Below are positions 1 to 9,794 of a stretch of 30,476 nt of DNA, piece by piece. Positions within the stretch are counted from its first letter, which is position 1; each line of letters starts with the position of its first letter. The notes beneath the pieces are model-generated. The model was not told where the DNA came from and did no database searches. It saw only the letters and a program-made list of their open reading frames with translations. The position numbers and the translations under genes were made by a program. The DNA is from a virus (Duplodnaviria; Heunggongvirae; Uroviricota; Caudoviricetes), in IMG/VR virus record IMGVR_UViG_2802429234_000002; one strand, written 5' to 3'.

Positions 1-798
1 TTAGAACATCACCTTATGACCATATTGCTCAAGAATCCCTTTTACGCGCTCCATGGTTTCTTTTTTCGGTGGTTTCACACCGTCGAGTTTGTACTCTTCG
101 CCCATCGCCACCCACTTATGTTTGCCTAACTCATGGTAGGGGAGGAGCTCGATTTTTTCGACGTTACCCATATCGCGAGTAAATTCACCGAGGCGATGAG
201 CTGAATCGTCATCGTCAGACCAGCCAGGTACTACGACATAACGTATCCAGACTTTCACATTTTTGTTCGCCAGATATTTAGCAAACTCGAGTGTACGATG
301 GTTGGAAACGCCCACCAGATTCTGGTGGATTTCGTCGTTCATCTGTTTGAGATCAAGCATTACCAGGTCGGTCACTTCCAGCAGTTCATCAATTACTGGA
401 TCGTAACGACGAACAAAACCGTTAGTGTCCAGACAGGTATGAATGCCTTCTTTTTTGCAGGCGCGGAACCAGTCGCGAACGAACTCGGCTTGCAGGATTG
501 CTTCACCGCCGGATGCGGTAACGCCGCCGCCGGAAGCGTTCATAAAGTGGCGATAGGTCACCACTTCCTTCATTAAATCTTCAACGGTAACTTCTTTACC
601 GCCATGCGTGTCCCAGGTGTCGCGGTTATGACAATACAGGCAGCGCATCAGGCAGCCCTGGAAAAAGGTGATAAAGCGAATACCTGGACCGTCTACGGTT
701 CCACAGGATTCAAAGGAGTGAATGCGACCAATAACTGACTTGGTAGCCCCCGCCGCAGCGGTATTTTCTGTTGTATTACAATTAGTTAAATTACTCAT
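1..798 (-). CDS. pflA: Pyruvate formate-lyase activating enzyme (radical SAM), host gene; the ORF as drawn carries a 19-codon N-terminal extension relative to the PflA N-terminus I recall ([11 protein letters not shown]...)
   Basis: 265-aa ORF with radical-SAM CX3CX2C motif (CLMRCLYC) and glycine-rich stretch [10 protein letters not shown]; sequence recognised from memory as enterobacterial PflA; stop codon at 1-3; the codon at the recalled start position (739-741) is AAG. Confidence 0.9.
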
Positions 799-829
799 AT
801 CGCTTCAATTGGCTCTAGTTAACTCTGGT

Positions 830-1825
830 TTATGGACGCATTATGGACATTCCTGACACCGGGTTAAGAGTCACAGCATCTTGTAAGAAATCCGGTGCAA
901 AGTGTGCGTAGGTCATAGTTTGCTGAATGTTAGAATGACCCAGGATGCGCTGCAATGTGATTATGTTACCTCCATTCATTATAAAATGTGTGGCAAATGT
1001 ATGCCTCAAAACATGCACTGCCTGTCCGTCAGGTAAATCGGGTTTTACTTCCCTGAGAGCGTTGCGCACTTTGTAGTAACTGGCATTAAAAAGCCTGCCA
1101 GAATTTTTGGTTTTGATCCGTTTAATCAAGTCCTGCGAAACGGGAATTGTCCTGCGCTTTCCGTTTTTGGTTTTCATAAACGTAACCATTTGGTTAATGA
1201 TGTGTTCAGCTTTTAAATTAGACACTTCACTCCAGCGTCCACCAGTAGAAAGGCAGACCAGAGTCGCATTTAATTCATCACCATCAAGCATGGATAGCAG
1301 CCGCGTAATCTCTTCACTGGACAAAAAAGCCATTTCCGTAACAGCTTCACGTAACCGCTTCACCTCACGGAACGGGTTGTGAGAGTGATATTCACCGGCG
1401 TCAATTAACTTGGTGAACATCCCGCTCATTATTGCCAGATGCCGATTTACGCTGGCTGGTTTTAGACCGTCGTTCATCATTACAACGCGATAATCAGTTA
1501 TCGTTTTCTTTGTTAGCTGGTCCGCCCTGGACACTCCCATCTCAGCAAATTTGGCAATTATTGTCGTCAAACGCCCCCGTTCAATATCTCCACGCTCATG
1601 TGATTTTCCGTGATATATCCACCATCTGCCTAACAACTCTGTAAGAGTTCGGCGGTCGGCCGGCTTCTCCAACCACTCTTTGTTGTGGTAGTTAACCAGG
1701 ACATGACGCTCGAATGCCTGGGCTTCACCTTTAGTTTTAAATTTCCGCCTGATACGTTTTCCATCTGCACCCTGCGGCCTGACGTCCACTTCATAACGAC
1801 CATCATCGAGCTTTTTAATAGACAT
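830..1825 (-). CDS. int: Tyrosine recombinase / phage integrase (P2 Int-like)
   Basis: 331-aa ORF; N-terminus MSIKKLDDGRYEVD resembles P2 Int; C-terminal catalytic region HVLRHTFATHF...ITLQRILGHSNIQQTMTYAH carries the R...HxxR...Y tyrosine-recombinase signature; first gene of the prophage next to the host junction. Confidence 0.93.
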   Translation of the reverse strand: MSIKKLDDGRYEVDVRPQGADGKRIRRKFKTKGEAQAFERHVLVNYHNKEWLEKPADRRTLTELLGRWWIYHGKSHERGDIERGRLTTIIAKFAEMGVSRADQLTKKTITDYRVVMMNDGLKPASVNRHLAIMSGMFTKLIDAGEYHSHNPFREVKRLREAVTEMAFLSSEEITRLLSMLDGDELNATLVCLSTGGRWSEVSNLKAEHIINQMVTFMKTKNGKRRTIPVSQDLIKRIKTKNSGRLFNASYYKVRNALREVKPDLPDGQAVHVLRHTFATHFIMNGGNIITLQRILGHSNIQQTMTYAHFAPDFLQDAVTLNPVSGMSIMRP

Positions 1826-1918: not shown

Positions 1919-2218
1919 TCAGCCAGTCTTTTGGTCTGAGTGGTGCAAGGTTGTTGAGTCTTGCCCAATGTGTGCGAGCGCCGGGGCTATTTGTCCGGCA
2001 GCGGGATCTGTCTCATCAAACATGAACCAGTCACGGTATTTTCTGAACCTTTCTACTTTAAAAAACTTCTTAGCATTTTCTAGGGACATCATAGCCTTAC
2101 CTGATTCATAACCTGCATATGTGGTGTAGTTGATGCCAGCTAGTTCAGCTACCTCCTTCATTTTCAGACGTTCAGACTCACGGATAAGCTTCAAACGTTC
2201 GCTAGTGTCAGTTGACAT
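1919..2218 (-). CDS. C: Immunity repressor C (P2 C-like); start taken at the internal ATG giving 99 aa
   Basis: HTH-containing small protein upstream of int on the same strand; C-terminal GQIAPALAH motif resembles P2 C as recalled; divergent from cox. The track ORF extends to 2269 but P2 C is 99 aa. Confidence 0.8.
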   Translation of the reverse strand: MSTDTSERLKLIRESERLKMKEVAELAGINYTTYAGYESGKAMMSLENAKKFFKVERFRKYRDWFMFDETDPAAGQIAPALAHIGQDSTTLHHSDQKTG

Positions 2219-2321
2219 AAATTCTCTAACCTCGTATTCTTTTGCATAGTTGATATGATTTATCAGCATCTAACGACTCTAAATCGCTCTAGATCGCTGA
2301 CATCAATGTGAGGATAGCAAA
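2219..2321. promoter_or_regulatory. Lysis-lysogeny switch region (face-to-face Pe/Pc promoters and probable C operator)
   Basis: 103-bp divergent intergenic region between C and cox; contains two overlapping 12-bp direct repeats CTCTA[A/G]ATCGCT at 2277-2288 and 2287-2298, spaced one helical turn apart; P2 C is known to bind direct repeats. Confidence 0.5.
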
Positions 2322-2678
2322 ATGAATGTCGGATCTGAAATTTGTGACGAGAAAAGACAAGAAGTTTCTGCTCTTAAAAAAAACAAGCGTGATTCCATTA
2401 AGTTGGCTGCGGATCCGTCAGATTTACTGTCGAAAGAGGGTTTTGCTCTTTACATCGGTAAGACTCCTCGTGCGGTGGCTGAAATGGCACGAGCTGGAAA
2501 GCTGCCAGCATTCTATATGACAGACCCGTTAAAGCCGGGCGGTCACGCTGAGTTATGGATTAATCGTCGTGAGTGGGACAAATATGCAGCTCAACTAGTC
2601 GATGAAGCTCCGACAGAATGGCATGACTGGAAGAACCGCATAAGTTACAGCAAATCCAGACATGGCCACGCGGCCTAA
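2322..2678 (+). CDS. cox: Cox-like excisionase / early transcriptional regulator
   Basis: First rightward gene after the switch region; SD GAGGA upstream; positional equivalent of P2 cox; motif MTDP...WINRREW reminiscent of the Cox/Apl family; 118 aa, longer than P2 Cox (91 aa). Confidence 0.7.
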   Translation: MNVGSEICDEKRQEVSALKKNKRDSIKLAADPSDLLSKEGFALYIGKTPRAVAEMARAGKLPAFYMTDPLKPGGHAELWINRREWDKYAAQLVDEAPTEWHDWKNRISYSKSRHGHAA

Positions 2679-2687
2679 GGAGGAGCC

Positions 2688-3152
2688 ATGAGGCAAGATT
2701 TAAATAAAACATCGGTGACTATCATCAGAGGAAACCTTGAAGATGCATCACCATCTAACAGCCTGACTATTACGTATAGTGAGTTTGCTAATAGTACGAA
2801 AGAATATAAATCAGCCGATGAATTGAGAAAACAAAATATCATTTTGGATAATGATGAACTTGTTTTTATTAGTTCAGATGGTGATGAAGAAATTCTACGG
2901 CTGAATTTGAAATCTTTATTTCATGACTCTTTTTTGCGCATTAAATATGAATGCGTTGGTATGACCGTTCAAGAGCGCATGGAACTCGCTAAGGCTCTTC
3001 GTGAAACGATAATTTCTAAATCAGGCGATATAAATAGTATTAAATGGTCAATAGGGCTTGATGACTGGAAAAGTATTTTTGACATGATGACGCATCCGTA
3101 TAAACAGCATACGGATGCAAGATGCTATTTTAAAAATGATTTATATCAATAA
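2688..3152 (+). CDS. Hypothetical protein, 154 aa, no recognisable family; low-GC moron
   Basis: ATG 9 bp after the cox stop with strong SD (AAGGAGG); G+C about 37% by manual count of 2688-2759; not part of the P2 gene set I recall. Confidence 0.65.
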   Translation: MRQDLNKTSVTIIRGNLEDASPSNSLTITYSEFANSTKEYKSADELRKQNIILDNDELVFISSDGDEEILRLNLKSLFHDSFLRIKYECVGMTVQERMELAKALRETIISKSGDINSIKWSIGLDDWKSIFDMMTHPYKQHTDARCYFKNDLYQ

Positions 3153-3324
3153 AGCCTTTGAGTTGGACTGGCTTTTTAGGGTGAATGATCTCTCTTAATT
3201 GAATAGTTAATTCATCCACTTTTTTAGCGTCCTCAAAATCTCCCATTGGAGTTGGTAGGGTATTTGCTAATGCAACCGCTTTTTCGAGAGTGGTTATAAG
3301 TTCGTCAATATTTTGATTATTCAT
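3130..3324 (-). CDS. Hypothetical protein, 64 aa, no recognisable family; convergent with and overlapping the 154-aa ORF
   Basis: ATG at 3322-3324 preceded by SD GAGGT with about 5-nt spacer (minus strand); low GC; 3' end overlaps the 3' end of the 154-aa ORF by 23 bp. Confidence 0.5.
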   Translation of the reverse strand: MNNQNIDELITTLEKAVALANTLPTPMGDFEDAKKVDELTIQLREIIHPKKPVQLKGFIDINHF

Positions 3325-5139: not shown

Positions 5140-5411
5140 GTATTCGTATTGAAATTGGCGAACGTTATGTCGTTACCAGTGACAGCTTTCAGTTTATTCT
5201 CCACGAGAAAAAGAGAGCGGAAAGCGGTAAAAACGCCGGTCAGGAATGGCTGGCGGTGGTTGGTTATTACCCGAAATTAAGCCAGCTCGTTTCCGGCCTG
5301 ATGCATCACGATATTCTGACCGGAAGCGCAAAGTCTTTTGCTGATTTAAACGCGCAGGTTGAGCAACTCAGCAGGCGTTGTTCAGAGGCTTTTGGCTCAT
5401 ATGGCCGTTAA
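5136..5411 (+). CDS. Small early protein (hypothetical)
   Basis: 91-aa ORF with SD GGAGA upstream; overlaps the start of A. Confidence 0.55.
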   Translation: MSIRIEIGERYVVTSDSFQFILHEKKRAESGKNAGQEWLAVVGYYPKLSQLVSGLMHHDILTGSAKSFADLNAQVEQLSRRCSEAFGSYGR

Positions 5412-7677
5412 AGCCTCCGGGCGTTTTGTCCCTCCGTCAGCATTTACCGCAGGCACCGGTAAGGCGTTTACCGGTGCTTATGCATGGAACGCGCCACGCG
5501 AGGCTGTCGGGCGCGAAAGACCCCTTACACGTGACGAGATACGTCAGGTGCAAGGTGTTTTATCCACGATTAACCGCCTGCCTTACTTTTTGCGTTCGCT
5601 GTTTACTTCACGCTATGACTACATCCGGCGCAATAAAAGCCCGGTGCACGGGTTTTATTTCCTCACATCCACTTTTCAGCGTCGTTTATGGCCGCGCATT
5701 GAGCGTGTGAATCAGCGCCATGAAATGAACACCGACGCGTCGTTGCTGTTTCTGGCAGAGCGTGACCACTATGCGCGCCTGCCGGGAATGAATGACAAGG
5801 AGCTGAAAAAGTTTGCCGCCCGTATCTCATCGCAGCTTTTCATGATGTATGAGGAACTCAGCGATGCCTGGGTGGATGCGCATGGCGAAAAAGTATCGCT
5901 GTTTACGGATGAGGCGCAGGCGCATCTGTATGGTCATGTTGCTGGCGCTGCACGTGCTTTCAATATTTCCCCGCTTTACTGGAAAAAATACCGTAAAGGA
6001 CAGATGACCACGAGGCAGGCATATTCTGCCATTGCCCGTCTGTTTAACGATGAGTGGTGGACTCATCAGCTTAAAGGCCAGCGTATGCGCTGGCATGAGG
6101 CGTTATTGATAGCTGTCGGGGAGGTCAATAAAGACCGTTCTCCTTATGCCAGTAAACATGCCATTCGTGATGTGCGTGCGCGCCGTCAGGCAAATCTGGA
6201 GTTTCTTAAATCGTGTGACCTTGAAAACAGGGAAACCGGCGAACGCATCGACCTTATCAGTAAGGTGATGGGCAGTATTTCTAATCCTGAAATTCGCCGG
6301 ATGGAGCTGATGAACACCATTGCCGGTATTGAGCGTTACGCCGCAGCAGAGGGTGATGTGGGGATGTTTATCACGCTGACCACGCCGTCAAAGTATCACC
6401 CGACACGTCAGGTCGGAAAAGGTGAAAGTAAAACCGTCCAGCTAAATCACGGCTGGAACGATGAGGCATTTAATCCAAAGGACGCGCAGCGTTATCTCTG
6501 CCGTATCTGGAGCCTGATGCGCACGGCATTCAAGGATAATGATTTACAGGTCTACGGTTTGCGAGTCGTCGAGCCACACCACGACGGAACGCCGCACTGG
6601 CATATGATGCTTTTTTGTAATCCACGCCAGCGTAACCAGATTATTGAAATCATGCGTCGCTATGCGCTCAAAGAGGATGGCGACGAAAGAGGAGCCGTGC
6701 GAAACCGTTTTCAGGCAAAACACCTTAACCGGGGCGGTGCTGCGGGATATATCGCGAAATACATCTCAAAAAACATCGACGGATATGCACTGGATGGTCA
6801 GCTCGATAACGATACCGGCAGGCCGCTGAAAGACACTGCAGCGGCTGTTACCGCATGGGCGTCAACGTGGCGTATCCCGCAATTTAAAACGGTTGGTCTG
6901 CCGACAATGGGGGCTTACCGTGAACTACGCAAATTGCCTCGTGGCGTCAGCATTGCTGATGAGTTTGACGAACGCGTCGAGGCTGCACGCGCCGCCGCAG
7001 ACAGTGGTGATTTTGCGTTGTATATCAGCGCGCAGGGTGGGGCAAATGTCCCGCGCGATTGTCAGACTGTCAGGGTTGCCCGTAGCCCGTCGGATGACGT
7101 TAACGAGTATGAGGAAGAAGTCGAGAGAGTGGTCGGCATTTACGCGCCGCATCTCGGCGCGCGTCATATTCATATCACCAGAACCACGGACTGGCGCATT
7201 GTGCCGAAAGTTCCTGTCGTTGAGCCTTTGACTTTAAAAAGCGGCATCGCCGCGCCTCGGAGTCCTGTCAATAACTGTGGAAAGCTCACCGGTGGTGATA
7301 CTTCGTTACCGGCTCCCACACCTTCTGAGCACGCCGCAGCAGTGCTTAATCTGGTAGATGACGGTGTTATCGAATGGAGTGACCCGGAGGTCGTGATGGC
7401 GCTCAGGGGCGCATTAAAACACGGACTGAGAACACCAAATCGTCAGCAAAGAAACGGAATCCCGTTAAAACCGCATGAAATTGCACCATCTGCCAGACTG
7501 ACCAGGTCTGAACGATTGCAAATTACCCGTATCCGCGTTGACCTCGCTCAGAACGGTATCAGGCCGCAACGATGGGAGCTTGAGGCGCTGGCGCGTGGCG
7601 CGACCGTAAATTATGACGGGAAAAAATTCACGTATCCGGTTGCTGATGAGTGGCCGGGGTTCTCGTTACCCATTTGA
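5401..7677 (+). CDS. A: Replication initiation protein A (rolling-circle HUH endonuclease)
   Basis: 758 aa from ATG 5401 (N-terminus MAVKASGRF as recalled for P2 A); HUH-type motif PHHDGTPHWHMMLF and tyrosine motif YIAKYISK; track ORF begins at TTG 5359. Confidence 0.9.
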   Translation: MAVKASGRFVPPSAFTAGTGKAFTGAYAWNAPREAVGRERPLTRDEIRQVQGVLSTINRLPYFLRSLFTSRYDYIRRNKSPVHGFYFLTSTFQRRLWPRIERVNQRHEMNTDASLLFLAERDHYARLPGMNDKELKKFAARISSQLFMMYEELSDAWVDAHGEKVSLFTDEAQAHLYGHVAGAARAFNISPLYWKKYRKGQMTTRQAYSAIARLFNDEWWTHQLKGQRMRWHEALLIAVGEVNKDRSPYASKHAIRDVRARRQANLEFLKSCDLENRETGERIDLISKVMGSISNPEIRRMELMNTIAGIERYAAAEGDVGMFITLTTPSKYHPTRQVGKGESKTVQLNHGWNDEAFNPKDAQRYLCRIWSLMRTAFKDNDLQVYGLRVVEPHHDGTPHWHMMLFCNPRQRNQIIEIMRRYALKEDGDERGAVRNRFQAKHLNRGGAAGYIAKYISKNIDGYALDGQLDNDTGRPLKDTAAAVTAWASTWRIPQFKTVGLPTMGAYRELRKLPRGVSIADEFDERVEAARAAADSGDFALYISAQGGANVPRDCQTVRVARSPSDDVNEYEEEVERVVGIYAPHLGARHIHITRTTDWRIVPKVPVVEPLTLKSGIAAPRSPVNNCGKLTGGDTSLPAPTPSEHAAAVLNLVDDGVIEWSDPEVVMALRGALKHGLRTPNRQQRNGIPLKPHEIAPSARLTRSERLQITRIRVDLAQNGIRPQRWELEALARGATVNYDGKKFTYPVADEWPGFSLPI

Positions 7678-7892
7678 GTAAAAACACAACGTGATTTGAT
7701 ATGGCATTGAATGGCTTATGCGGAGCAGTTATGGGGCAGCCGAAGGTCAATAGCATGCTGAATTAGAAGGCTAAATGCTATTGAGTGACTAGCATGTCGG
7801 TAAGGACAGCCGTTTGATCCGGGTCATAAAAGGCCATCCATTTAGTCTAATAAAATCATTGCGGGTAACCTTATGTCGACGCATAATTCGTC

Positions 7893-7907
7893 TTGAGCGA
7901 AGTCTTG
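7893..7907. repeat. Direct repeat copy 1 (TTGAGCGAAGTCTTG)
   Basis: Exact 15-bp match to 8157-8171. Confidence 0.85.
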
Positions 7908-7937
7908 TCAGTCTTTCATCGTATTGATGATGGGCGC

Positions 7938-7967
7938 AAAAAAACCACCCTGGCAGGTGGTTTTTTT
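7938..7967. terminator. Bidirectional rho-independent terminator (A7 - GC hairpin - T7)
   Basis: AAAAAAACCACCCTGGCAGGTGGTTTTTTT; serves the end of A (plus) and the small minus-strand peptide gene. Confidence 0.8.
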
Positions 7968-7979
7968 GTTTGAAGCATA

Positions 7980-8093
7980 TTAAAGCATAATGCTGACATT
8001 GATATTACTGACGTTTACTGACAAACCACTCGGACTACCGTTTGGATAGCCAAAGAGGGCCAGAACGAGAATGCAGTAATAGCATTTCTTCAT
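7980..8093 (-). CDS. Small hydrophobic peptide, 37 aa (MKKCYYCILVLALFGYPNGSPSGLSVNVSNINVSIML)
   Basis: ATG at 8091-8093 preceded by AGGAGG with 4-nt spacer (minus strand); hydrophobic N-terminal segment; terminator immediately downstream; lies where P2 carries tin/old. Confidence 0.4.
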   Translation of the reverse strand: MKKCYYCILVLALFGYPNGSPSGLSVNVSNINVSIML

Positions 8094-8156
8094 ATTGCCT
8101 CCTGTAAGTAGAGGGCAACTTCCACCGGTATATGCGCTTCTTAGGTGGAATGACTT

Positions 8157-8171
8157 TTGAGCGAAGTCTTG
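8157..8171. repeat. Direct repeat copy 2 (TTGAGCGAAGTCTTG)
   Basis: Exact 15-bp match to 7893-7907; the two copies bracket the terminator and the small peptide gene. Confidence 0.85.
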
Positions 8172-8238
8172 CCCTGAAATAATGCTCTGTTTAAACGCAA
8201 AGTGATTTGGCATATCACCGAACAGAGAGCCGGAAAAA

Positions 8239-8286
8239 CACAACATATAGTATGTCGTTGTTTCTAGACATACATTCTATGTTGTG
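8239..8286. repeat. Imperfect inverted repeat (18/20-bp arms, 10-nt spacer)
   Basis: CACAACATATAGTATGTC ... GACATACATTCTATGTTGTG; outer 9 bp and inner 6 bp pair perfectly. Confidence 0.7.
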
Positions 8287-8571
8287 TAACAAGGGCTTTG
8301 CATTAAACATGTTTGAGATTTTATTGATGTAGCTCAAAGTAAAAAACAGAGACTACGGATGATAAGGTCTTGAAAGCAATGTAAATTTTTTAAGGTTGCC
8401 AATTGCTTAAAAATGTACAGTTGCGGTATGGCGTACTTAAAAAGCTATGCATGCAACAAGTGAATGTTTTTGCATGCGTTGGGGATGTCCGTTCAGGCTG
8501 CGTGCGGTCAGGACTGGTGCGGATCCATAGTATCTATGCAACTGCATTAAAACCGCCCCGTGAAGCGGGCG

Positions 8572-8590
8572 GGCGAGGCGGGGAAAGCAC
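8572..8590. other. cos: cos site (19-nt cohesive-end sequence of the P2 family)
   Basis: GGCGAGGCGGGGAAAGCAC matches the P2 cohesive end as I recall it; located between A and Q as in P2; a GC-rich hairpin lies just 5' of it. Confidence 0.8.
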
Positions 8591-8732
8591 TGCGCGCTGG
8601 CGGTGGTGCTGATTTTATTTTTTCAGCGTCTGAGCGCGTCGTGATGGCGTTTAGATTGTGCGCCGGGGCGTTGGTGTGTCTGCGGGATGTTTTGTGCGGT
8701 GGTGAGCGTGTGAGGGCGTGATGACAGGGTGT

Positions 8733-8754
8733 AAAAAAGCCGCCCGCAGGCGGC
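8733..8754 (-). terminator. Rho-independent terminator after Q
   Basis: On the minus strand GCCGCC-TGCG-GGCGGC followed by TTTTTT, 5 bp past the Q stop. Confidence 0.75.
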
Positions 8755-8759
8755 GATGT

Positions 8760-9794
8760 TCAGCCGTTGTCAGTGTCCAGTGAGTAGTTTTTAAAGCGGA
8801 TGACCTCCTGACCGAGCCAGCCGTTTATTTCCCGAATCCTGTCCTGTAACGGGATAAGCTCATTGCGGACAAAGACCTTTGCCACTTTCTCAATATCTCC
8901 CAGCGACCCGACGTTCTCCGGCTTGCCTCCCATCAACTGAAAGGGGATGCGGTGCGCGTCCAGCAGGTCAGCGGCGCTGGCTTTTTTGATATTAAAAAAA
9001 TCGTCCTTCGTTGCCACTTCACTGAGCGGGATAATTTTAATGCCGTCGGCTTTCCCCTGTGGGGCATAGAGAAACAGATTTTTAAAGTTGTTGCGGCCTT
9101 TCGACTTCACCATGTTTTCGCGGAGCATTTCGATATCGTTGCGATCCTGCACGGCATCGGTGACGTACATGATGTATCCGGCATGTGCGCCGTTTTCGTA
9201 ATACTTGCGGCGGAACAGCGTAGCCGACTCATTCAGCCAGGCAGAGTTAAGGGCGCTGAGATATTCCGGCAGGCCGTACAGCTCCTGATTAATATCCGGC
9301 TCCAGCAGGTGAAACACGGAGCCGGGCGCGAAGGCTGTCGGCTCGTTGAAGGACGGCACCCACCAGTACACATCCTCTTCCACACCACGGCGGGTATATT
9401 TTGCCGGTGAGGTTTCCAGTCTGATGACCTTACCGGTGGTGCTGTAACGCTTTTCCAGAAACGCATTACCGAACACCAGAAAATCCAGCACAAAGCGGCT
9501 GAAATCCTGCTGGGACAGCCACGGATGCGGGATAAATGTCGAGGCCAGAATATTACGTTTGACGTAAATCGGGGAGCTGTGATGCACGGCAGCACGCAGG
9601 CTTTTTGCCAGACCGGTAAAGCTGACCGGTGGCTCATACCATCTGCCGTTACTGGTGCACTCGACGTAATCCAGAATGTCACGGCGGTCGAGTACCGGCA
9701 CCGGCTCACCAAAGGTGAATGCCTCCATTTTCGGGGCGCTGGCGGTCATTTTTTTTGCCGCAGGTTGCGGTGTTTTCCCTTTTTTCTTGCTCAT
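8760..9794 (-). CDS. Q: Portal protein
   Basis: 344 aa, same length as P2 Q; precedes the terminase large subunit; 1-nt stop/start overlap with P. Confidence 0.9.
   Translation of the reverse strand: MSKKKGKTPQPAAKKMTASAPKMEAFTFGEPVPVLDRRDILDYVECTSNGRWYEPPVSFTGLAKSLRAAVHHSSPIYVKRNILASTFIPHPWLSQQDFSRFVLDFLVFGNAFLEKRYSTTGKVIRLETSPAKYTRRGVEEDVYWWVPSFNEPTAFAPGSVFHLLEPDINQELYGLPEYLSALNSAWLNESATLFRRKYYENGAHAGYIMYVTDAVQDRNDIEMLRENMVKSKGRNNFKNLFLYAPQGKADGIKIIPLSEVATKDDFFNIKKASAADLLDAHRIPFQLMGGKPENVGSLGDIEKVAKVFVRNELIPLQDRIREINGWLGQEVIRFKNYSLDTDNG

What the first reader, a model, noticed from the sequence alone, without database searches (positions are those of the whole stretch)
739..832. Prophage inserted at the 5' end of pflA, with a remodelled PflA start
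The int stop codon (830-832) lies only 31 bp from the first ATG of the pflA ORF (796-798), so the attL crossover must be within or beside the pflA 5' end. From memory, E. coli PflA starts [11 protein letters not shown]. Here the codon at that position (739-741) is AAG (Lys) and the ORF extends 19 codons upstream ([19 protein letters not shown]) through AT-rich sequence with only a weak SD. This suggests that integration displaced the native pflA promoter and start, and that phage-derived sequence now supplies the 5' end, a known strategy for phages that integrate into protein-coding genes. pflA expression could then depend on read-through from int.
Basis: partly seen in the sequence, partly recalled or inferred. 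Interest (0 to 1): 0.55.

Follow-up and report, generated by a model that had tools for sequence, protein, structure and literature searches.

The report
P2-like prophage rebuilds pflA start
A P2-type prophage has inserted into the first codons of the host gene pflA and supplies a new start codon plus 19 extra codons that keep the gene open; the insertion site was already known, but the same phage-made gene start also survives as a fossil in Salmonella after the phage has decayed.

Summary
pflA (1-798, minus strand) encodes E. coli PflA with Met1 changed to Lys (AAG, 739-741) and 19 extra N-terminal codons. The integrase stop codon lies 31 nt upstream of the new ATG. Comparing attB, attL, attR and attP places the crossover in a 13-bp core, GTCAGTTATTGGT (727-739). 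This core is the G of the native ATG plus codons 2-5. Everything upstream of it is phage DNA and is present in free phage genomes. The native promoter and ATG end up at attR, in front of a terminator.

This attB is the published site of P2-like phages PhiD145 and PhiD160 and of Pectobacterium ECA29. 405 of 5426 complete E. coli genomes carry the junction. The locus is therefore known.

Three points go further:
- The cassette's length and reading frame are identical in 12 diverged variants from at least seven genera.
- Salmonella enterica and two other lineages keep the phage-derived start next to a decayed integrase stump. In Salmonella, sopD2 lies in the scar.
- The first 11 codons are conserved (MSNLxxCxxxE) and the other nine are not.

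How pflA is transcribed in the lysogen is unresolved. It could be read-through from the C-int operon or a promoter inside attL. Interest is moderate to low.

The parts
1..798 (-). Chimeric pflA ORF (265 aa): phage-derived codons 1-19, AAG (Lys) in place of the native ATG, then host PflA residues 2-246
   Evidence: PGAP annotates the same 798-nt CDS in E. coli lysogens as WP_000067977.1. The exact protein is on at least 1000 public contigs.
1..726 (-). Host-derived part of pflA, downstream of the core
   Evidence: Collinear with K-12 pflA, with 51 synonymous and 0 non-synonymous differences.
727..739 (-). att core: 13 bp, GTCAGTTATTGGT, identical in attB, attP, attL and attR. It is the third base of the start codon plus codons 2-5 of pflA.
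   Evidence: Four-way alignments.
739..741 (-). AAG (Lys) where the native ATG start codon was. The middle base (740) is the attP/attB mismatch.
742..798 (-). Phage-borne 19-codon N-terminal extension ([19 protein letters not shown]) with the new start ATG at 796-798. Codons 1-11 are conserved and codons 12-19 are hypervariable.
   Evidence: Present in the attP of free phages. 12 variants share the same length and frame. Predicted disordered.
799..829 (-). 31-nt spacer holding the phage-supplied translation initiation region: weak SD (GAAG), AT-rich, little predicted structure
830..1825 (-). P2-type tyrosine integrase (331 aa)
   Evidence: Pfam Int_N and Phage_integrase. 100% identical to the Int in E. 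albertii NBRC 107761.
831..851 (-). Two direct ATGGAC repeats (832-837, 843-848; TGTCCA/CGTCCA on the sense strand). Putative P-arm Int arm-type binding sites.
   Evidence: Read from the sequence. Matches the P2-type arm consensus tgTGGaCa given in PMC3448106. Conserved in the alignment.
1919..2269 (-). Immunity repressor C (HTH), first gene of the lysogenic Pc operon. The 300-nt CDS annotated in E. coli lysogens corresponds to 1919-2218.
   Evidence: Pfam HTH_3. Annotation.
2322..2678 (+). Cox (early operon, divergent from C). Together with C it defines a P2-type switch.
   Evidence: Pfam Phage_Cox, 8.6e-29

Best explanation
**What it is.** This is attL of a P2-like (Peduovirus) prophage of the PhiD145/PhiD160 integration class.

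**How the junction forms.** The integrase recombines a 13-bp core shared by attP and the first codons of pflA. The phage arm next to int carries a ready-made 5' cassette: an unstructured, weak-SD initiation region, an ATG, 19 codons, and AAG in place of the host ATG. After integration this cassette is fused in frame to pflA codon 2. The lysogen therefore makes a 265-aa PflA with a disordered N-terminal tail in front of an unchanged catalytic body.

**What happens to the native start.** The native pflA promoter, SD and ATG are left at attR, about 30 kb away. There they can only encode an 8-codon stub (MSVIGDIF*), which runs into a bidirectional terminator.

**How pflA is transcribed.** Transcription in the lysogen must start inside the prophage. 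The likeliest source is the constitutively active lysogenic operon Pc-C-int, because integration removes the terminator that follows int in attP. A promoter in the last ~200 bp of int may add to this or replace it.

**Shown:** the att anatomy, the phage origin of the cassette, and conservation of its frame and length.

**Inferred:** that the extended protein is made and is active, and where its transcript starts.
For: **att anatomy.** Shown.

**Phage origin of the cassette.** It is present at 99% identity or more in 19 deposited phage records.

**P2-type module.** C, Cox and Int are identified.

**Transcription.**
- No terminator-like site lies on the minus strand between 600 and 2400.
- A terminator, AAAGCCCCTCAACTGAGGGGCTTT, lies on the attR side between the core and ogr.
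- In P2 the Pc operon expresses C and integrase (PMC3936717; PMC1904263).

**Selection on the cassette.**
- Phages whose Int is 76-86% identical, in Scandinavium, Pseudescherichia, Rahnella, Citrobacter and a metagenome, keep the same ATG and the same 19 codons.
- This frame has 0 stops, against 1-5 (mostly 2-5) in each other frame.
- Three prophage-free fossils keep the ATG and the open extension although int has decayed: Salmonella, L095 and, more weakly, L097. The int remnants carry stops and 10-50 gap columns.
- These fossil genes have no other ATG, GTG or TTG upstream of the conserved GRIHS motif (L095 has a GTG at the old start position).

**Tolerance of a tail.**
- AlphaFold gives pLDDT below 50 for residues 1-18, with an ordered core from residue 23.
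- Providencia-type PflA natively has a 16-18 aa N-terminal tail.

**Gene body.** It is under strong purifying selection, with 51 synonymous and 0 non-synonymous changes against K-12.
Against: - No transcript or protein data were available.
- The SD is weak (-2.1 kcal/mol).
- Promoter scans found nothing above chance in attL.
- The fossils show that pflA can be expressed without an intact C-int operon, so read-through cannot be the only route.
- A recent review, citing Evans et al. 2010, describes ECA29 integration at this gene as a disruption of pflA. I could not read that paper or that genome.
- The 51:0 synonymous excess mostly predates integration, so it does not prove function in this strain.
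Confidence: 0.8

Rival explanations
1. pflA in the lysogen is driven by a dedicated phage-borne promoter inside attL, within the last ~200 bp of int. Read-through from Pc-C-int is not required.
For: - In the closest studied analogue (HK022 at torS) the transcript starts inside attL, the int promoter is not needed, and no clear -10/-35 is visible (PMC6814406).
- All three fossils retain at least 80-235 bp of the int 3' end (at least ~150 bp of upstream sequence counting the int-to-ATG spacer) although the rest of the prophage is gone.
- A TATAAT (983->978, minus strand) lies in a block that stays TATNNT-like in most aligned sequences.
Against: - The scanner found no site above chance. The one hit in the window (867->840, 9 of 12 matches) overlaps the arm repeats and is not conserved.
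- The conserved block also encodes the most conserved Int motif (HFIMNGGNI). Its persistence in fossils can be explained by ancestral conservation.
- There are only three deletion endpoints.
Confidence: 0.4
2. Integration inactivates pflA, as a gene-disrupting or 'active lysogeny' insertion. On this view the 265-aa ORF is an annotation by-product and lysogens lack PFL-activating enzyme 1.
For: - The review statement that ECA29 'disrupted the pflA gene'.
- The weak SD.
- The loss of the native promoter.
Against: - The ATG, the frame and the 19-codon length are conserved across 12 diverged variants.
- The cassette is retained, while int decays, in Salmonella and two other lineages that still have a conserved pflA body.
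- 405 of 5426 complete E. coli genomes carry the junction. In the 30 top-ranked records listed, pflA is annotated as an intact CDS, not flagged as a pseudogene.
Confidence: 0.06
3. The extension did not originate in the phage. It was captured by an ancestral phage from a host whose PflA natively carries an N-terminal tail, as in Morganellaceae, through imprecise excision. This concerns origin only, not present function.
For: Providencia-type PflA has a native Thr-rich 16-18 aa tail behind a normal pflB terminator, promoter and SD, with no int remnant. Its composition is similar, including a TTE at a similar position.
Against: There is no detectable sequence homology between the native tails and the phage cassette. 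The lengths differ (16-18 aa against 19 aa). The conserved MSNLxxC start is absent from the native tails.
Confidence: 0.1

Closest known systems
P2-like coliphages PhiD145 and PhiD160, and prophage ECA29 of Pectobacterium atrosepticum (integration class listed in Nilsson et al. 2011, PMC3448106; primary papers Karlsson 2006 and Mandali 2010 were not readable here)
   Same: Both have a P2-type Int with a C/Cox switch. The published attB is MG1655 coordinate 950293. After the roughly 777-bp offset between genome versions (from memory), this falls inside the 13-bp core found here (951066-951078 in NC_000913.3). ECA29 is listed with the same site identity and is reported to be in pflA.
   Different: I could not compare the PhiD145 core sequence directly. 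The literature I could read gives only the site, or calls the gene 'disrupted'. It does not describe the in-frame start cassette, its conservation, or the fossils.
HK022 prophage at torS (Carey et al. 2019, eLife, PMC6814406)
   Same: int is the gene nearest attL. attL abuts the 5' end of a host gene. [quoted passage not shown] About 5% of E. coli carry such prophages, against 7.5% here.
   Different: HK022 integrates upstream of the torS coding sequence and changes only the promoter. Here the crossover is inside the coding sequence, and the phage also replaces the start codon and adds 19 residues. The regulatory consequences for pflA are unknown.
Gene-end-restoring integration, as in phage 21 and e14 in icd and many phages in the 3' ends of tRNA genes (established knowledge, from memory)
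   Same: attB lies inside a gene, and the element carries a substitute gene end so that the gene stays intact in the lysogen.
   Different: Those elements carry a near-copy of the displaced 3' end, so the product is essentially unchanged. Here the 5' end is replaced by a non-homologous sequence, which gives a longer protein and new translation signals.
Gene-interrupting prophages with reversible excision, such as phi10403S in comK (cited in PMC13492144)
   Same: The prophage sits inside a protein-coding gene.
   Different: In those cases the host ORF is split and inactive until excision. Here the ORF stays open.

Membership tests
P2-like (Peduovirus) prophage, PhiD145-type integration class | P2-type tyrosine integrase adjacent to att | tested here: met
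   Pfam Int_N (2.8e-22) and Phage_integrase (1.3e-18). 94-98% nucleotide identity to deposited Peduovirus genomes.
P2-like (Peduovirus) prophage, PhiD145-type integration class | C repressor and Cox in a divergent Pc/Pe switch next to int | tested here: met
   HTH_3 protein at 1919-2269 (minus strand) and Phage_Cox at 2322-2678 (plus strand).
P2-like (Peduovirus) prophage, PhiD145-type integration class | P2-type arm repeats (consensus tgTGGaCa) flanking the core | tested here: met
   Two repeats at 832-837 and 843-848 in the P arm. CGTCCACA and TGACCACA in the P' arm at attR and attP. The consensus is from PMC3448106. Binding was not tested.
P2-like (Peduovirus) prophage, PhiD145-type integration class | attB at MG1655 950293 (pflA 5' end) | tested here: met
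   The core maps to 951066-951078 of NC_000913.3. It equals 950289-950301 in the older numbering only if the ~777-bp version offset, recalled from memory, is right.
P2-like (Peduovirus) prophage, PhiD145-type integration class | Core sequence identical to the PhiD145 attP core | not testable with these tools
   PhiD145 partial records (AM158280, AM159077, AJ298559) and the primary papers are not held.
Gene-end-restoring integrative elements | attB inside a coding sequence, and the ORF remains open across attL | tested here: met
Gene-end-restoring integrative elements | The element carries a homologous copy of the displaced gene end | tested here: not met
   Beyond the 13-bp core, the phage arm has no similarity to the native pflA upstream region or start. 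It adds 19 new codons instead.
Gene-end-restoring integrative elements | The host gene product stays functional in the lysogen | not testable with these tools
   Inferred only, from conservation of the cassette and from the fossils.
Promoter-replacing prophages (HK022-torS type) | The native promoter is separated from the gene by the prophage | tested here: met
   The pflB-pflA intergenic region sits at attR.
Promoter-replacing prophages (HK022-torS type) | A mapped phage-encoded promoter drives the host gene | tested here: inconclusive
   Consensus scans gave nothing above chance. This needs transcript mapping.
Gene-disrupting or active-lysogeny prophages | The host ORF is interrupted in the lysogen | tested here: not met
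   An uninterrupted 265-aa ORF with a conserved start.

The most novel reading that the evidence does not exclude
The phage-borne pflA start cassette is more than a neutral patch. It has repeatedly become the permanent 5' end of pflA after the prophage decayed. On this reading Salmonella enterica PflA is a phage-host chimera, and the effector gene sopD2 sits in the scar of a P2-like prophage between pflB and pflA. The conserved N-terminal motif M-[S/T/G]-N-L-x-x-C-x-x-x-E is kept with synonymous wobble changes in live phages and in fossils, while the next nine codons drift freely. It may therefore give PflA a selected property, such as translation efficiency, stability or regulation, and so give the phage or host a new handle on anaerobic pyruvate metabolism.
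Probability: 0.3. Interest if true: 0.6.

Novelty: new member of a known kind. Interest (0 to 1): 0.4.

Why it matters
PflA is the radical-SAM activase that switches on pyruvate formate-lyase, the central enzyme of enterobacterial mixed-acid fermentation. About 7.5% of complete E. coli genomes, and strains of Klebsiella, Citrobacter, E. albertii and other genera, express it, if at all, from phage-supplied translation signals and probably phage-controlled transcription, with a 19-residue phage-encoded tail.

If the fossil reading holds, the Salmonella enterica pflA loci examined here (two extension variants; the arrangement is probably general for the species, which I could not test) inherited this chimeric start from an ancient P2-like prophage, and sopD2 occupies that prophage's scar. 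That would correct the view that integration at this site disrupts pflA. It would also add a 5'-end, protein-altering example to the known ways in which phages repair the genes they insert into. None of this changes basic understanding of site-specific integration.

Tried and rejected
- **Viral-contig scan with Int.** It returned 80 loci, but almost all are prophage predictions cut exactly at the int stop, so they show no att sequence.
- **tblastn of the 27-aa attP ORF against phages.** No match, probably because of the low-complexity filter. It was replaced by a DNA search.
- **First protein search with a 70-aa N-terminal query.** It returned only short fragments. Full-length variants are merged into one 90% cluster of 6565 members that mixes 246-aa and 265-aa forms, so prevalence could not be counted from cluster sizes.
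- **Promoter and terminator scans of attL.** Live and fossil loci gave no reproducible promoter.
- **Conserved block in the fossil int stumps.** I considered it as a promoter or SD-like element and set it aside. It coincides with the most conserved Int motif, so ancestral conservation explains it.
- **Phage P88.** It matched part of the query but has a different region downstream of int with its own terminator, so it is not a pflA integrator.
- **Literature.** Searches on pflA with P2-like, prophage or sopD2 found only the review line on ECA29 and the site table of Nilsson 2011. Karlsson 2006, Mandali 2010 and Evans 2010 are not held.
- **Codon-position test.** It showed no third-position excess over the whole extension. 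The claim is therefore limited to 'ORF and first 11 codons constrained, the rest only length- and frame-constrained'.
Full report
**1. The observation**

The window starts at the pflA stop codon and ends at the ogr stop codon. It therefore holds attL and nearly a whole P2-like prophage, but not attR.

- On the minus strand, int is 830-1825 (331 aa) and pflA is an uninterrupted ORF at 1-798 (265 aa).
- The 31 nt at 799-829 separate the int stop codon from the pflA ATG at 796-798.
- K-12 PflA is 246 aa. Its residues 2-246 are identical to residues 21-265 here, and its ATG is replaced by AAG at 739-741.
- The crystallised enzyme (3C8F/3CB8) matches residues 21-265 at 100%.

**2. Where the crossover is**

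I aligned four sequences:
- the window (attL);
- K-12 (attB);
- attR of a complete E. coli lysogen, NZ_CP082824 (pflB - attR - ogr ... int - attL - pflA);
- attP of two free phages, Yersinia phage vB_YpM_115 and Peduovirus P24A7b.

All four share GTCAGTTATTGGT, at window 727-739 in the pflA sense. The flanking sequences are:
- attB: CACCGCA-ATG-TCAGTTATTGGT-CGCATTCAC
- attP: GCTACC-AAG-TCAGTTATTGGT-GACATTTTTTGA
- attL: the left part of attP joined to the right part of attB
- attR: the left part of attB joined to the right part of attP

The core is thus the last base of the start codon plus codons 2-5. Everything from base 740 upward is phage DNA: the AAG, the 19 codons, the ATG and the initiation region.

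In the free phage the same ATG opens a 27-codon ORF that stops just past the core. At attR the native promoter, SD and ATG remain but encode only MSVIGDIF*. They are followed by a stem-loop terminator, AAAGCCCCTCAACTGAGGGGCTTT, that lies between the core and ogr.

**3. What the element is**

- C (HTH_3), Cox (Phage_Cox) and Int (Int_N plus Phage_integrase) form a P2-type switch and integration module.
- The int-C region is 94-98% identical to deposited Peduovirus genomes.
- 19 phage records carry the int 3' end, spacer, extension and core at 99% identity or more.
- Two ATGGAC repeats at 832-837 and 843-848, and GTCCACA/GACCACA repeats on the attR side, fit the P2-type arm consensus tgTGGaCa (PMC3448106).

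**4. How common it is**

- 405 of 5426 complete E. coli genomes contain the int-pflA junction. PGAP annotates the 798-nt CDS as pflA, WP_000067977.1.
- The exact protein occurs on at least 1000 public contigs, and Klebsiella pneumoniae has its own 265-aa version.
- The E. albertii type strain carries an Int that is 100% identical, at the same place.

**5. What was already known**

Nilsson et al. 2011 (PMC3448106, Table 1) list the P2-like coliphages PhiD145 and PhiD160 as integrating at MG1655 coordinate 950293. They give prophage ECA29 of Pectobacterium the same site identity.

With the roughly 777-bp offset between MG1655 sequence versions (from memory), the core found here, 951066-951078 in NC_000913.3, becomes 950289-950301. 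That range contains 950293. The integration site itself is therefore known.

A 2026 review, citing Evans et al. 2010, says ECA29 'disrupted the pflA gene'. I found no accessible text that describes the in-frame start cassette. The primary papers (Karlsson 2006, Mandali 2010, Evans 2010) are not held.

**6. Evidence that the cassette is selected and not accidental**

*Live prophages in other genera.* Int relatives (76-86% identity) have the same arrangement in Scandinavium (three species), Pseudescherichia vulneris, Rahnella ecdela, Citrobacter portucalensis and a metagenome contig: int, a short spacer, an ATG, exactly 19 codons, the replaced start position, then pflA.

Examples of the extension:
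- MSNLNTCNLTENTDAPGAVK|PVIG
- MSNLTSCNLKENTDNSEVAK|PVIG
- MSNLTHCKDKENTAITAPVK|AVIG
- MSNLNHCNTTENPTASGATK|SVIG
- MSNLTDCISTESTTESGGH-M-SVQG (Rahnella, which keeps an ATG at the old start position)

*Reading frame.* Across ten distinct DNA versions (52-77% identity; 95-98% among three near-identical Scandinavium/Pseudescherichia sequences; 28-45% G+C), the pflA frame has no stop codons. The two other frames have 1-5 stops (mostly 2-5) in the same 60 nt. There are no length changes.

*Two parts to the extension.* Codons 1-11 are 79-88% identical to the window at the nucleotide level, which is as conserved as the pflA body. N3, C7 and E11 are invariant. L4 is invariant in all but one variant (P0004 has Thr at position 4). 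Wobble changes are synonymous (AAT/AAC, TGT/TGC, AGT/AGC). Codons 12-20 are only 41-59% identical (70% in Scandinavium L007), yet they keep frame and length. There is no overall third-position excess, so the second part behaves as a spacer of fixed length.

**7. Fossils**

The extended pflA also exists without a prophage.

*Salmonella enterica* (L093, L094, L102). The order is pflB, its terminator, sopD2 on the opposite strand, about 570 bp, then pflA. The pflA begins MSNLNDCIKKENTAAAAEKK|PIIG or MSNLTNCITNESVAVTADKK|PVIG. The 230 bp directly upstream translate to Int residues 254-331 at 37-43% identity with in-frame stops (tblastn E = 3e-7 and 4e-8).

*Logan contig L095.* It has pflB, 430 bp that include Int residues 269-331 (74% identity, one stop), then pflA with [20 protein letters not shown]|PVLG.

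*L097.* It shows a weaker int remnant (E = 0.028).

In these loci the int stump is 55-63% identical to the window's with 10-50 gap columns. The adjoining ATG and 19 codons remain open and unshifted. The stump lies where an attL would, and the rest of the prophage is gone.

Salmonella and L097 have no other ATG, GTG or TTG between that ATG and the conserved GRIHS motif, and their pflA body is conserved. Their PflA must therefore start at the phage-derived ATG. L095 has a GTG at the old start position. This is the strongest available argument that the extended protein works. It rests on the established fact, from general knowledge, that Salmonella has PFL-dependent formate fermentation.

**8. 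Tolerance of an N-terminal tail**

- AlphaFold2 on a 32-sequence alignment gives mean pLDDT 85. Residues 1-18 are below 50, and the first strand starts at residue 23.
- Providencia-type PflA (L099, L101) natively carries a 16-18 residue Thr-rich tail. It sits behind a normal pflB terminator and SD, with no int remnant.

**9. Expression**

*Translation.* The phage initiation region has a poor SD (-2.1 kcal/mol, against -6.4 for native). It is AT-rich and nearly unstructured, with -2.7 against -11.1 kcal/mol for positions -31 to +30.

*Transcription by read-through.* In P2 the lysogenic Pc operon expresses C and integrase (PMC3936717, PMC1904263). Here nothing terminator-like lies on the minus strand from Pc to pflA. 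The terminator that follows the core in attP ends up at attR. Read-through from Pc-C-int into pflA is therefore the simplest model for an intact lysogen.

*Transcription from an attL promoter.* In the analogous HK022-torS case the host gene is driven by a promoter inside attL, not by the int promoter (PMC6814406). The fossils must also express pflA without C-int. Scans found no convincing promoter.

I put read-through and an attL promoter at roughly equal odds. They are not exclusive.

**10. Verdict**

The finding is real and correctly interpreted. The locus belongs to a known integration class, and the general strategy of a phage repairing the gene it enters is known. It is not very surprising to a specialist.

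What is not in the literature I could read:
- the conserved 5' cassette with its two-part structure;
- its fixation in Salmonella and other lineages, with sopD2 in the scar;
- the conflict with the published 'disruption' label.

Overall interest is 0.4.

Noticed in passing
L093 860-2560; L102 2228-4345 (Salmonella enterica): In Salmonella the effector gene sopD2 lies between pflB and pflA. It abuts the pflB terminator on one side. On the other side, about 300 bp away, is a decayed P2-type int 3' stump with the phage-derived pflA start. sopD2 may occupy the scar of an ancient prophage of this class.
   Followed up: partly
window 742-798 and homologous positions in L006-L012, L093-L097, L106, L107: In the phage-derived extension, N3, C7 and E11 are invariant and L4 nearly so, giving the motif M-[STG]-N-L-x-x-C-x-x-x-E. 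Wobble changes are synonymous. The following nine codons are hypervariable. No function is known for the motif.
   Followed up: partly
window 1-798: pflA is a mosaic. The first ~300 nt of the ORF differ from typical E. coli lysogens at 2-3 positions, while the remaining ~500 nt differ at about 48 positions (about 10%). That 3' allele is 98-99% identical to only three 'E. coli' genomes. In one of these (06-00048) pflA lies next to bcsC and there is no prophage. This suggests a recombination breakpoint inside pflA, near window position 500.
   Followed up: partly
L099 2361-2560; L101 300-480 (Providencia / Morganellaceae-type): PflA here natively has a 16-18 residue Thr-rich N-terminal extension, with an ordinary SD and no phage remnant. 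It resembles the phage cassette in composition but shows no detectable homology to it.
   Followed up: partly
L004 (Yersinia phage vB_YpM_115) and records vB_YpM_46, VB-YPM-4: Several phages isolated on Yersinia pestis carry the attP with the E. coli pflA core and cassette. This suggests that their natural lysogenic hosts are Escherichia-like. I did not check whether Y. pestis pflA holds a matching core.
   Followed up: no
window 2688-3324: Between cox and the replication genes there is a 154-aa ORF (2688-3152, plus strand) and a converging 64-aa ORF (3130-3324, minus strand). Neither has a Pfam match. Both are annotated as hypothetical proteins in E. coli EA2. They may be accessory cargo.
   Followed up: no
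window 7677-8760: The slot between the replication endonuclease gene (5359-7677) and the portal gene (8760-9794, minus strand) is only ~1 kb here. In P2 this slot holds the tin/old accessory genes. Here it has one 88-aa ORF (7980-8246, minus strand) with no Pfam match.
   Followed up: no
L003 5840-5870 (attR of E. coli URN1) and the attP of free phages: After integration the native pflA promoter, SD and ATG drive only an 8-codon ORF (MSVIGDIF*) that runs into the phage terminator. In the free phage the cassette forms a 27-codon ORF across the core.
   Followed up: yes
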